DNA of 64,000 nt from Escherichia coli (GCF_003334785.1 NZ_QOWV01000002.1), one strand, 5' to 3'. Positions 24,801 to 27,800 are shown, counted from the stretch's first letter. Made by a program: the numbers.

Positions 24801-27800
24801 ATCAGGAACCTGAGGCCTGATAACTGATAAGGGCAGGGCCACTGGCTCTGCCCTTTTGCTATTCTCACCGTAACGAATCAGCGGATACCATGATTATCAA
24901 ACGCACTCCTCAAGCCGCGTCGCCTCTGGCTTCGTGGCTTTCTTATCTGGAAAACCTGCACAGTAAAACTATCGATCTCGGCCTTGAGCGCGTGAGCCTG
25001 GTCGCGGCGCGTCTTGGCGTCCTGAAACCAGCGCCATTTGTGTTTACCGTTGCGGGTACGAATGGCAAAGGCACCACCTGCCGTACGCTGGAGTCGATTC
25101 TGATGGCGGCAGGGTACAAAGTGGGCGTCTACAGTTCGCCTCATCTGGTGCGTTATACCGAGCGCGTACGTGTGCAGGGCCAGGAATTGCCGGAATCGGC
25201 CCACACCGCCTCTTTTGCGGAGATTGAATCGGCACGCGGTGATATTTCCCTGACCTATTTCGAGTACGGTACGCTGTCGGCGTTGTGGCTGTTCAAGCAG
25301 GCACAACTTGACGTGGTGATTCTGGAAGTAGGGCTGGGCGGTCGTCTGGACGCAACCAATATTGTCGACGCCGATGTCGCGGTAGTAACCAGTATTGCGC
25401 TGGATCATACCGACTGGCTGGGTCCAGATCGCGAAAGTATTGGTCGCGAGAAAGCAGGCATCTTCCGCAGCGAAAAACCGGCAATTGTCGGTGAGCCGGA
25501 AATGCCTTCTACCATTGCTGATGTGGCGCAGGAAAAAGGTGCACTGTTACAACGTCGGGGCGTTGAGTGGAACTATTCCGTCACCGATCATGACTGGGCG
25601 TTTAGCGATGCTCACGGCACGCTGGAAAATCTGCCGTTGCCGCTTGTCCCGCAACCGAATGCCGCAACAGCGCTGGCGGCACTGCGTGCCAGCGGGCTGG
25701 AAGTCAGTGAAAATGCCATTCGCGACGGGATTGCCAGCGCAATTTTGCCGGGACGTTTCCAGATTGTGAGCGAGTCGCCACGCGTTATTTTTGATGTCGC
25801 GCATAATCCACATGCGGCGGAATATCTCACCGGGCGTATGAAAGCGCTACCGAAAAACGGGCGCGTGCTGGCGGTTATCGGTATGCTACATGATAAAGAT
25901 ATTGCCGGAACTCTGGCCTGGTTGAAAAGCGTGGTTGATGACTGGTATTGTGCGCCACTGGAAGGGCCGCGCGGTGCCACGGCAGAACAACTGCTTGAGC
26001 ATTTGGGTAACGGCAAATCATTTGATAGCGTTGCGCAGGCATGGGATGCCGCAATGGCGGACGCTAAAGCGGAAGACACCGTGCTGGTGTGTGGTTCTTT
26101 CCACACGGTCGCACATGTCATGGAAGTGATTGACGCGAGGAGAAGCGGTGGCAAGTAAGTTTCAGAATCGGTTAGTGGGCACGATCGTGCTGGTGGCGCT
26201 GGGGGTGATTGTACTTCCAGGGCTGCTGGACGGGCAGAAAAAACATTATCAGGATGAGTTCGCGGCTATCCCGCTGGTGCCGAAAGCGGGCGATCGTGAT
26301 GAGCCTGATATGATGCCAGCCGCCACCCAGGCGTTACCGACGCAGCCGCCGGAAGGCGCAGCGGAAGAGGTGCGGGCAGGTGATGCCGCAGCACCGTCGC
26401 TCGATCCGGCCACTATTGCAGCCAATAACACCGAGTTTGAACCGGAACCTGCACCGGTCGCCCCACCGAAGCCGAAACCGGTGGAGCCGCCTAAACCAAA
26501 GGTTGAAGCACCACCTGCGCCGAAGCCAGAACCGAAGCCGGTCGTGGAAGAAAAAGCTGCACCGACGGGTAAAGCCTATGTTGTGCAACTGGGTGCGCTG
26601 AAAAATGCCGATAAAGTGAATGAGATTGTCGGTAAGCTGCGCGGTGCCGGTTATCGGGTTTATACGTCGCCATCCACGCCAGTGCAGGGTAAAATTACCC
26701 GTATTCTGGTTGGGCCGGATGCCTCGAAAGATAAGCTGAAAGGTTCGCTGGGTGAGTTGAAGCAACTTTCTGGCTTAAGTGGCGTGGTAATGGGCTATAC
26801 GCCGAATTAATACGGTCTTGCCTGATGCGACGCTGGCGCGTCTTATCAGGCCTACGCAGGGGTAGAACCGTAGGTCGGATAAGGCGTTTACGCCGCATCC
26901 GACACGCATTGCCCGATGCCGCAAAGGCATAAAAAGTCGATGGCGTTGAATATTTTTTCAGCGCCATTTTTATTGATGCGCGGGAAGGAAATCCCTACGC
27001 AAACGTTTTCTTTTTCTGTTAGAATGCGCCCCGAACAGGATGACAGGGCGTAAAATCGTGGGACACATATGGTCTGGATTGATTACGCCATAATCGCGGT
27101 GATTGCTTTTTCCTCTCTGGTTAGCCTGATCCGCGGCTTTGTTCGTGAAGCGTTATCGCTGGTGACATGGGGTTGTGCTTTCTTTGTTGCCAGTCATTAC
27201 TACACTTACCTGTCAGTCTGGTTTACGGGCTTTGAAGACGAACTGGTTCGAAATGGGATTGCCATCGCGGTACTGTTTATCGCTACCCTGATCGTTGGTG
27301 CTATCGTGAACTTCGTGATAGGCCAGTTGGTGGAGAAAACGGGGTTGTCAGGCACCGATCGGGTGCTGGGCGTCTGTTTCGGTGCGTTGCGCGGTGTGTT
27401 GATTGTTGCTGCCATTCTCTTCTTTCTCGACTCCTTTACCGGGGTGTCGAAAAGCGAAGACTGGAGCAAATCACAGCTGATCCCGCAATTCAGTTTTATC
27501 ATCAGATGGTTTTTTGATTATCTGCAAAGCTCGTCAAGTTTCTTGCCCAGAGCGTAAGTGCTCTGAGATGTGGCTTAACGAGGAAAAAGACGTATGTGCG
27601 GTATTGTCGGTATCGCCGGTGTTATGCCGGTTAACCAGTCGATTTATGATGCCTTAACGGTGCTTCAGCATCGCGGTCAGGATGCCGCCGGCATCATCAC
27701 CATAGATGCCAATAACTGCTTCCGTTTGCGTAAAGCGAACGGGCTGGTGAGCGATGTATTTGAAGCTCGCCATATGCAGCGTTTGCAGGGCAATATGGGC

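What the first reader, a model, noticed from the sequence alone, without database searches (positions are those of the whole stretch)
26148..26158. dedD starts from GTG inside the last 11 nt of folC
The GTG with a GAGGAG RBS that gives the expected 220-aa SPOR protein lies within the folC coding sequence, implying tight translational coupling of folate metabolism and a cell-division protein. The same pattern recurs in this window: GTG starts for prmB, mnmC, pdxB, hisM, yfbT, yfbS and pta; 1-4 nt overlaps at mepA/yfcA, yfcA/epmC, usg/truA, hisQ/hisM and through the nuo and fimbrial operons.
Basis: partly seen in the sequence, partly recalled or inferred. Interest (0 to 1): 0.2.

Follow-up and report, generated by a model that had tools for sequence, protein, structure and literature searches.

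The report
dedD GTG start inside folC's end
The cell-division gene dedD of E. coli does begin at a GTG inside the last 11 bases of folC, using a ribosome-binding site written in folC's final codons, but this is annotated, experimentally confirmed and ordinary operon packing.

Summary
The window is E. coli K-12 (reverse complement of MG1655 2,393,832-2,457,831, 10 mismatches). folC ends at TAA 26156-26158. dedD starts at GTG 26148-26150, giving an 11-nt overlap and a 220-aa DedD/SPOR protein. GAGGAG lies at 26137-26142, 5 nt upstream.

It is already known:
- RefSeq annotates exactly this start.
- Published N-terminomics lists the peptides MASKFQNR and ASKFQNR at this GTG, with Ribo-RET and INRI-seq support.
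- A genome-recoding study found that folC codons AGG-AGA could not be changed to CGU-CGU because they form the dedD ribosome-binding site.

GTG plus the 11-nt overlap is present in all 80 Enterobacterales genomes examined. More distant relatives keep folC-dedD adjacent, with spacings from +9 to -11 nt.

- The RBS initiates in vitro on a transcript that lacks the rest of folC.
- folC and dedD mRNA levels are equal, but dedD ribosome density is about 0.43 of folC's.
- Reviews report weaker coupling for overlaps longer than 4 nt.

GTG starts make up 9 of 59 genes, which is not unusual. Interest is low.

The parts
24890..26158 (+). folC coding sequence (422 aa; bifunctional folylpolyglutamate/dihydrofolate synthase)
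   Evidence: ORF. RefSeq b2315 mapped. NCBIfam NF008101 at 855 bits over 1-422.
26148..26810 (+). dedD coding sequence (GTG start, 220 aa; short cytoplasmic N-terminus, one transmembrane helix, Pro-rich linker, SPOR domain)
   Evidence: Translation. RefSeq b2314. NF008641 at 392 bits. Pfam SPOR at residues 141-214. N-terminal peptides MASKFQNR and ASKFQNR in PMC13245402 Table S1.
26148..26158 (+). 11-nt folC/dedD overlap, GTGGCAAGTAA. dedD codons 1-4 (GTG GCA AGT AAg) lie in the +1 frame relative to the last folC codons (gGT GGC AAG TAA).
   Evidence: Sequence. The overlap length is identical in 80 of 80 Enterobacterales loci and in 3 of 8 distant loci.
26137..26142 (+). Shine-Dalgarno sequence GAGGAG of dedD, 5 nt upstream of the GTG. 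It is carried by folC codons Arg417 AGG (26138-26140) and Arg418 AGA (26141-26143), that is folC nt 1249 and 1252.
   Evidence: Anti-SD duplex of -8.9 kcal/mol. Recoding these two codons to CGU-CGU failed and was predicted to lower dedD RBS strength by 99% (10.1101/069385). A purine-rich SD is kept in all 80 related loci, with dG from -5.7 to -11.8.
26156..26158 (+). folC stop codon TAA, embedded in dedD codons 3-4 (Ser-Lys)
   Evidence: TAA occurs at the same place in 80 of 80 loci.
24829..24855 (+). Terminator-like hairpin with a T run between accD and folC. It is the likely site of partial termination upstream of the folC-dedD unit.
   Evidence: Pattern scan. mRNA abundance falls from 853 (accD) to 159 (folC). 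The literature describes accD-folC-dedD as a read-through transcript of the accD terminator (PMC7264889).
26939..26968 (+). Terminator-like hairpin with a T run downstream of dedD, after a repeat-rich spacer
   Evidence: Pattern scan. This is a consensus match only. mRNA abundance is 154 for dedD and 141 for cvpA, so termination here is not evident from those data.

Best explanation
folC and dedD are two genes on one transcript (accD read-through/folC-dedD). DedD is translated from GUG 26148 by ordinary Shine-Dalgarno-led initiation. The 16S rRNA 3' end pairs with GAGGAG (26137-26142), which doubles as folC codons Arg417-Arg418, and places the GUG in the P site. Ribosomes finishing folC pass over this site and stop at UAA 8 nt beyond the first base of the GUG. 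The start codon, the RBS and its functional requirement are shown. Co-transcription is supported. I infer that most dedD initiation is de novo 30S recruitment to an autonomous RBS. folC-translating ribosomes would contribute at most a modest coupling effect, by keeping the site open or by occasional re-initiation. I also infer that the overlap arose because FolC's poorly conserved C-terminal tail reads on through the dedD RBS and start until the first in-frame stop. In short, this is compact operon packing rather than a dedicated regulatory device.
For: Start site: the annotation agrees. N-terminal peptides MASKFQNR and ASKFQNR map to GTG NC_000913:2431682-2431684, with Ribo-RET and INRI-seq support. 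Homologues down to about 33% identity begin at the same residue with M-x-x-x-F-Q-N-R-L-V-G. The NCBIfam DedD profile aligns from position 1. RBS: anti-SD dG is -8.9 against -4.9 or weaker for the other in-frame candidates. AGG-AGA could not be recoded to CGU-CGU, and the problem was solved only by codons that keep RBS strength. Autonomy: INRI-seq templates hold only 30 nt of upstream sequence, and the site is still listed as INRI-supported. Co-transcription: folC mRNA is 159 and dedD mRNA is 154, and a literature statement says the same. Not 1:1: ribosome density is 145 against 62, and protein values are about 280 against about 86. No masking structure: z = 0.12, and the in vivo DMS Gini around the start is low at 0.275. 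Conservation: GTG, the 11-nt overlap and an SD occur in 80 of 80 loci, while the FolC tail residues vary (ARRSGGK, AGRSGGE, AEKAGGE, TEKGRGK). The FolC tail after GSFHTVA is 7-9 aa where the genes do not overlap or overlap by only 4 nt, and 12 aa or more where they overlap by 11 nt. TIGR01499 covers only FolC residues 32-413. General: RRF depletion does not change coupling in E. coli.
Against: No experiment I found tests whether stopping folC translation lowers DedD, so a sizeable coupling component is not excluded. The low in vivo structure around the dedD start could itself be produced by folC-translating ribosomes. The strict conservation of a non-AUG start and of tight spacing (-11 to +9 nt) across distant Gammaproteobacteria fits selection for linked expression. 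INRI-seq support is taken from a column in another paper's table; dedD was not found in the INRI paper's own held supplements. The 80 loci were retrieved using the peptide pattern FQNRLVGT. That pattern selects for the conserved N-terminus, although it does not select for the start codon or the overlap.
Confidence: 0.85

Rival explanations
1. Tight translational coupling by termination-reinitiation. The ribosome or 30S subunit that terminates at the folC UAA stays on the mRNA, is held by the SD, slides back 8-11 nt and restarts at the GUG. DedD output would then be set by folC translation.
For: Stop and start lie within 11 nt, and the SD is inside the upstream ORF. The junction stays tight (-11 to +9 nt) in all 88 genomes examined. 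Non-AUG starts are frequent: GTG in 80 of 80 loci, and GTG or TTG in 5 of 8 distant loci. The dedD/folC ribosome-density ratio of 0.43 is below 1, as re-initiation requires. Termination-reinitiation is documented for short overlaps in bacteria (papers listed).
Against: The RBS is listed as working in INRI-seq on a template without folC translation. Coupling efficiency is reported to fall as the overlap grows beyond -4. RRF depletion leaves coupling unchanged genome-wide in E. coli, including pairs whose stop and start overlap. No direct test exists for this gene pair.
Confidence: 0.12
2. Coupling by RNA unfolding. The dedD RBS is masked by local mRNA structure and becomes available only when folC-translating ribosomes melt that structure.
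For: In the MFE fold of 26098-26197 part of the SD region is paired. This is one of the two standard coupling models.
Against: The fold is no more stable than shuffled sequences (z = 0.12; MFE frequency 0.06). The in vivo DMS Gini at -20..+40 is low (0.275) compared with the gene body (0.507). Initiation is listed on the isolated INRI template.
Confidence: 0.03
3. DedD really starts elsewhere in frame: at TTG 26130 (giving 226 aa) or at a downstream GTG (codons 10, 14, 16 or 20).
For: These codons exist in frame.
Against: Their anti-SD pairing is weak, -2.4 to -4.9 kcal/mol. Observed peptides begin at M1/A2 of the GTG-26148 product. Downstream starts would truncate the transmembrane segment, which is reported as essential for DedD function. 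In other genera the dedD frame has a stop close upstream of the GTG (sequences). Homologues start at the same residue.
Confidence: 0.01

Closest known systems
Annotated E. coli K-12 folC-dedD junction (b2315/b2314), with the folC AGG-AGA codons acting as the dedD RBS (Napolitano et al. 2016, 10.1101/069385)
   Same: It is the same locus, the same GTG, the same 11-nt overlap and the same SD. The window is 99.98% identical to MG1655.
   Different: Nothing of substance. The window differs from MG1655 at 10 positions, none of them in the junction.
secE/nusG and dnaT/dnaC junctions in E. coli, described in the same recoding study
   Same: A rare AGR arginine codon at the 3' end of the upstream gene forms the SD of the downstream gene, and recoding to CGU is not tolerated.
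   Different: [quoted passage not shown]
Classical translationally coupled pairs with -1/-4 overlaps (trpB-trpA, galT-galK, rplK-rplA, and the nuo, his and yfc pairs in this window)
   Same: The genes are co-directional and co-transcribed, stop and start are within a few nucleotides, and the SD lies inside the upstream ORF.
   Different: The overlap here is 11 nt, not 1 or 4. Dependence on upstream translation has been shown for the classical pairs but not for folC-dedD. The translation ratio is about 0.4, not about 1.
prfB programmed +1 frameshift site (an internal SD close to a shift codon)
   Same: An SD-like sequence lies inside a coding region, with the downstream reading frame at +1.
   Different: There is no slippery P-site codon followed by a stop or hungry codon at the required 3-nt spacing. 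The separate DedD N-terminus is observed directly. No evidence of a FolC-DedD fusion was found.

Membership tests
DedD (NCBIfam NF008641, SPOR-domain cell-division protein) | Whole-protein score above the curated cut-off, aligned end to end | tested here: met
   392 bits against a cut-off of 150; residues 1-220 on profile positions 1-228 of 228.
DedD (NCBIfam NF008641, SPOR-domain cell-division protein) | C-terminal SPOR domain and N-terminal membrane anchor | tested here: met
   Pfam PF05036 at residues 141-214, E = 4e-12. A hydrophobic segment LVGTIVLVALGVIVLPGLL follows the conserved FQNR motif. G11 and P24 are invariant in 48 homologues.
FolC (NCBIfam NF008101 / TIGR01499) | Score above cut-off over the full length | tested here: met
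   NF008101 at 855 bits (cut-off 360) over 1-422. TIGR01499 at 383 bits over residues 32-413.
Canonical SD-led initiation at a non-AUG (GUG) start | [quoted passage not shown] | tested here: met
   GAGGAG with a 5-nt spacer; duplex dG of -8.9 kcal/mol.
Canonical SD-led initiation at a non-AUG (GUG) start | Protein N-terminus and initiating-ribosome footprint at that codon | tested here: met
   Taken from published data, not measured here. Peptides 1-8 and 2-8 are listed, and the Ribo-RET and INRI columns are positive (PMC13245402 Table S1 rows 497-498).
Canonical SD-led initiation at a non-AUG (GUG) start | Loss of the SD abolishes function | tested here: met
   Taken from published data. The AGG-AGA to CGU-CGU replacement was not recoverable, and an RBS-preserving replacement was (10.1101/069385). 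The evidence is indirect: it rests on viability, not on DedD level.
Translationally coupled gene pair | Same strand and same transcript | tested here: met
   Equal mRNA abundance, 159 against 154. Same operon id in a proteome table. Literature statement.
Translationally coupled gene pair | Stop and start close together (overlap or less than about 25 nt apart) | tested here: met
   Spacing is -11 nt. The review places the optimum at -4 to +3 and reports a decline with longer overlaps.
Translationally coupled gene pair | Translation of the downstream gene depends on translation of the upstream gene | not testable with these tools
   No nonsense-mutation or reporter experiment for folC-dedD was found in the searches. 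INRI-seq support suggests dependence is not absolute.
Programmed +1 ribosomal frameshift (prfB type) | Slippery P-site codon followed by a stop or hungry codon, with an SD about 3 nt upstream, yielding a fused product | tested here: not met
   By inspection of 26132-26158, no codon in the folC frame after the SD can re-pair in the +1 frame. An independent DedD N-terminus is observed.

The most novel reading that the evidence does not exclude
The invariant combination of a weak (non-AUG) start codon, a strong SD and an 11-nt overlap across Enterobacterales could be a selected device. It would slave DedD synthesis quantitatively to the flux of ribosomes finishing folC, through termination-reinitiation held by the SD. 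That would give a real regulatory link between folate/one-carbon status and septal peptidoglycan synthesis. The folate-peptidoglycan gene syntenies noted in Pseudomonas point the same way.
Probability: 0.08. Interest if true: 0.4.

Novelty: already known. Interest (0 to 1): 0.08.

Why it matters
It matters little for discovery. The start, the overlap and the RBS-in-codons arrangement are annotated, and each is backed by published experiments. The practical lesson is already in the literature. Synonymous recoding or deletion at the 3' end of folC (codons Arg417-Arg418, or the last 11 nt) damages dedD expression. Gene knock-outs, codon reassignment and folC tagging must therefore preserve this stretch. 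The comparative result here is a tidy example of a protein tail shaped by a neighbour's translation signals, but it is not a new principle. That result is 80 of 80 genomes with GTG and an 11-nt overlap, and a FolC tail that varies in sequence but stays purine-rich.

Tried and rejected
- **Alternative in-frame starts** (TTG 26130; GTG at codons 10, 14, 16 and 20). Rejected on SD energy, N-terminal peptides and homologue N-termini.
- **Masking RNA structure at the junction.** The fold is no better than shuffles.
- **Internal sigma-70 promoter for dedD inside folC.** The scan found matches only at the background rate (3 found, 2.5 expected), so there is no support.
- **Programmed +1 frameshift giving a FolC-DedD fusion.** No slippery context by inspection. 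One database "fusion" (P0193) looks like an error-laden contig.
- **Tandem repeats in the dedD linker.** None were detected in the window copy.
- **Data sources that gave nothing.** The Ribo-RET preprint has no held supplements. Li et al. 2014 is not held. The INRI-seq supplements held as text do not contain dedD, so INRI support is cited second-hand.
- **The search for related loci with a 48-sequence alignment.** It failed for lack of a conserved stretch. A 12-sequence alignment worked, but its best 80 loci were all Enterobacterales. Distant relatives were therefore sampled through 8 encoding-contig look-ups, whose source organisms are mostly unnamed metagenome contigs.
- **Genome-wide frequency of 11-nt overlaps in E. 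coli.** Not computed, because the whole-genome annotation is not available to the script tool.

Full report
**Identity of the window.** The 64-kb window is the reverse complement of E. coli K-12 MG1655 NC_000913.3 2,393,832-2,457,831, with 10 mismatches and no indels. It runs from fadJ/sixA and the yfc fimbrial operon through prmB-aroC-mepA, fabB, pdxB-usg-truA, dedA, accD, folC, dedD, cvpA-purF, the his transport genes and pta-ackA to nuoA-L.

**Check of the observation.**
- folC is the ORF 24890-26158 (ATG start, 422 aa, TAA at 26156-26158).
- In the +1 frame, GTG 26148-26150 opens 220 codons ending at 26810.
- The shared stretch is the 11 nt GTGGCAAGTAA, and the folC stop lies inside dedD codons 3-4.
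- GAGGAG occupies 26137-26142, 5 nt upstream. In the folC frame it is carried by Arg417 AGG and Arg418 AGA.
- RefSeq annotates the same coordinates in MG1655 (b2314, NP_416817.2) and in PGAP-annotated genomes.
- The product matches the NCBIfam DedD equivalog end to end (392 bits against a cut-off of 150). It has a Pfam SPOR domain at 141-214.
- FolC matches NF008101 over 1-422. The broader TIGR01499 model stops at residue 413.

Every other item in the finding agrees with the annotation.
- GTG starts: prmB, mnmC, pdxB, hisM, hxpA (yfbT), yfbS and pta.
- 1-nt overlaps: mepA/yfcA, yfcA/epmC, usg/truA and yfcS/R.
- 4-nt overlaps: hisQ/M, yfcR/Q, yfcQ/P, nuoE/F, G/H, J/K and K/L.
With dedD that makes 9 GTG starts among 59 genes, about 15%, which is unremarkable.

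**Is this the real start?**
- Among in-frame candidates, GTG 26148 pairs best with the anti-SD: -8.9 kcal/mol with a suitable spacer. TTG 26130 gives -4.0, and the downstream GTGs give -2.4 to -4.9.
- A profile-free search of 1.84 billion representatives shows full-length homologues down to about 33% identity aligning from residue 1 to residue 1. Nearly all begin M-x-x-x-F-Q-N-R-L-V-G. Several still carry V or L as the first letter, which indicates non-ATG starts.
- Direct experimental evidence exists. Table S1 of the TRAINSPOTTER N-terminomics paper (PMC13245402) lists dedD rows 497-498. They give peptides MASKFQNR (1-8) and ASKFQNR (2-8), TIS class dbTIS, start codon GTG at NC_000913:2431682-2431684, and support "Ribo-RET, INRI".
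- The same table gives N-terminal peptides for the GTG starts of pdxB and mnmC.
- Downstream starts would also remove part of the transmembrane segment, which the literature reports as essential for DedD function.

**Is the SD functional?** Napolitano et al. (10.1101/069385) tried to replace all AGR codons in essential genes. folC_AGG/AGA1249,1252 was one of four C-terminal failures attributed to disruption of a downstream RBS. CGU-CGU was predicted to lower dedD RBS strength by 99%. An RBS-preserving CGG-CGA replacement succeeded. They also could not delete the non-overlapping 29 nt of dedD left by the Keio deletion, and concluded that dedD is required in their strain. This is viability-based and therefore indirect, but it targets exactly these six bases.

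**Conservation within E. coli.** The 81-nt junction is single-copy in all 5,426 complete E. coli genomes and identical in 5,171 of them.

**Conservation across Enterobacterales.** A scan of one genome per species returned 80 loci. They include Escherichia, Citrobacter, Klebsiella, Raoultella, Kluyvera, Buttiauxella, Cedecea, Mangrovibacter, Pantoea, Mixta and Sodalis.
- All 80 have GTG, an 11-nt overlap (GTGGCNAGTAA) and a TAA stop.
- Anti-SD pairing ranges from -5.7 to -11.8 kcal/mol, with a median of -8.1.
- The FolC tail varies (ARRSGGK, AGRSGGE, AEKAGGE, TEKGRGK) but stays made of purine-rich codons.
- Caveat: the loci were retrieved with the peptide patterns FQNRLVGT and VI[FV]LP..LDG. 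These select for the DedD N-terminus, although not for the start codon or the overlap.

**Conservation in distant homologues.** Eight distant homologues (33-45% identity) keep the order folC-dedD-cvpA-purF where the contig reaches that far. In one short contig (L085) the upstream gene has no family assignment.

| Locus | Spacing (nt) | dedD start codon |
|---|---|---|
| L085 | +9 | TTG |
| L090 | +8 | ATG |
| L084 | +4 | TTG |
| L086 | +3 | GTG |
| L088 | -4 | ATG |
| L087 | -11 | GTG |
| L089 | -11 | ATG |
| L091 | -11 | TTG |

(Values.) After the conserved GSFHTVA motif, FolC has 7-9 more residues where the genes do not overlap or overlap by only 4 nt. It has 12 or more where they overlap by 11 nt. 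This fits an origin by FolC reading on through the dedD RBS and start until the next in-frame stop. That origin is an inference.

**Transcription and expression level.**
- A hairpin with a T run lies between accD and folC (24829-24855), and another lies after dedD (26939-26968). Promoter-like matches occur at the background rate.
- Burkhardt et al. 2017, Supplementary file 1, gives mRNA abundances of accD 853, folC 159, dedD 154 and cvpA 141.
- The same file gives TE of 0.912 for folC and 0.401 for dedD, and ribosome densities of 145 and 62.
- SD strengths there are -1.7 for folC and -7.8 for dedD.
- The in vivo DMS Gini for dedD is 0.275 at -20..+40, against 0.507 for the gene body.
- A proteome table gives about 280 for FolC and about 86 for DedD under one operon id; I did not verify the units.
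- A review states that folC is expressed from an accD-folC-dedD read-through transcript.
- So folC and dedD are co-transcribed, and DedD is made at roughly 0.3-0.45 of FolC.

**Mechanism.** The architecture is the one that permits translational coupling, but coupling has not been tested for this pair.

Against tight coupling:
[quoted passage not shown] The RBS can therefore recruit ribosomes on its own.
- The junction RNA has no unusual structure (z = 0.12).
- A 2025 review reports best coupling at -4 to +3 nt and a decline with longer overlaps.

For some coupling:
- The junction stays tight, and non-AUG starts are frequent, across distant lineages.
- The downstream/upstream translation ratio is below 1.

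My reading is autonomous SD-led initiation on a shared transcript, with at most modest coupling. I put this at about 0.85, re-initiation-dominated coupling at about 0.12, and structure-unmasking coupling at about 0.03. The start-site assignment itself is close to certain.

**Comparison with what is known, and verdict.** This is the annotated folC-dedD junction of E. coli K-12. It belongs with secE/nusG and dnaT/dnaC as published cases where a rare AGR codon in the upstream gene forms the downstream SD. Folate-peptidoglycan gene syntenies, including folC next to a dedD homologue, have been noted in Pseudomonas. Nothing here is new. Interest is low (0.08). The most novel reading not excluded is that the conserved weak-start, strong-SD, 11-nt-overlap design slaves DedD synthesis to folC translation. 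I put its probability at about 0.08, and its interest would be moderate if true.

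Noticed in passing
window 10356-10361 (aroC start region, GTGATG): The TRAINSPOTTER table lists, besides the annotated ATG start of aroC, an alternative start at the GTG one codon upstream (peptide [12 protein letters not shown]). That would be a one-residue N-terminal extension.
   Followed up: partly
window 38044-38049 (yfcE start, GTGATG): Start-codon disagreement between annotations. MG1655 RefSeq starts yfcE at GTG 38044 (184 aa). PGAP on strain ER1709 gives a CDS one codon shorter, presumably starting at ATG 38047. No N-terminal peptide for yfcE appears in the part of the table read.
   Followed up: partly
window 26811-27068 (dedD-cvpA spacer); L092:2546-3526: The spacer after dedD carries dispersed repeats: the 24800-27000 query hits a median of 14 places per E. 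coli genome. In some strains, such as UTME-8, an IS621 (IS110-family) transposase gene is inserted between dedD and cvpA.
   Followed up: partly
window 26400-26560 (dedD Pro/Lys/Glu-rich linker): DedD length varies from about 192 to 238 aa among Escherichia proteins. One variant (P0001) has an 18-residue duplication in the PKPKP-rich linker. Tandem Repeats Finder reports nothing in the window copy.
   Followed up: partly
window 24829-24855 (accD-folC spacer): A GC-rich hairpin with a T run lies just after accD. It coincides with a 5.4-fold drop in published mRNA abundance from accD (853) to folC (159). This fits partial termination with read-through into folC-dedD.
   Followed up: partly
window 18887-18890: yfcJ (+) and flk (-) converge and overlap by 4 nt at their 3' ends. 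This is the only opposite-strand overlap in the window.
   Followed up: no
window 26120-26155 and L084-L091: FolC's C-terminal tail beyond the conserved GSFHTVA motif is 7-9 residues in relatives where folC does not overlap dedD or overlaps it by only 4 nt. It is 12 residues or more where the overlap is 11 nt. This suggests the overlap arose by extension of folC into the dedD RBS and start.
   Followed up: partly
L001 (NZ_CP030240.1, strain ER1709), whole locus: This RefSeq record marks many genes of the region (yfc genes, prmB, aroC, mepA, mnmC, purF and others) as frameshifted pseudogenes, although they are intact in the window and in MG1655. It looks like an assembly-quality problem rather than biology.
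   Followed up: no
window 2831-5476: The fimbrial usher gene yfcU is annotated as a pseudogene in K-12, so the yfc chaperone-usher operon in this window is probably not functional as it stands.
   Followed up: no
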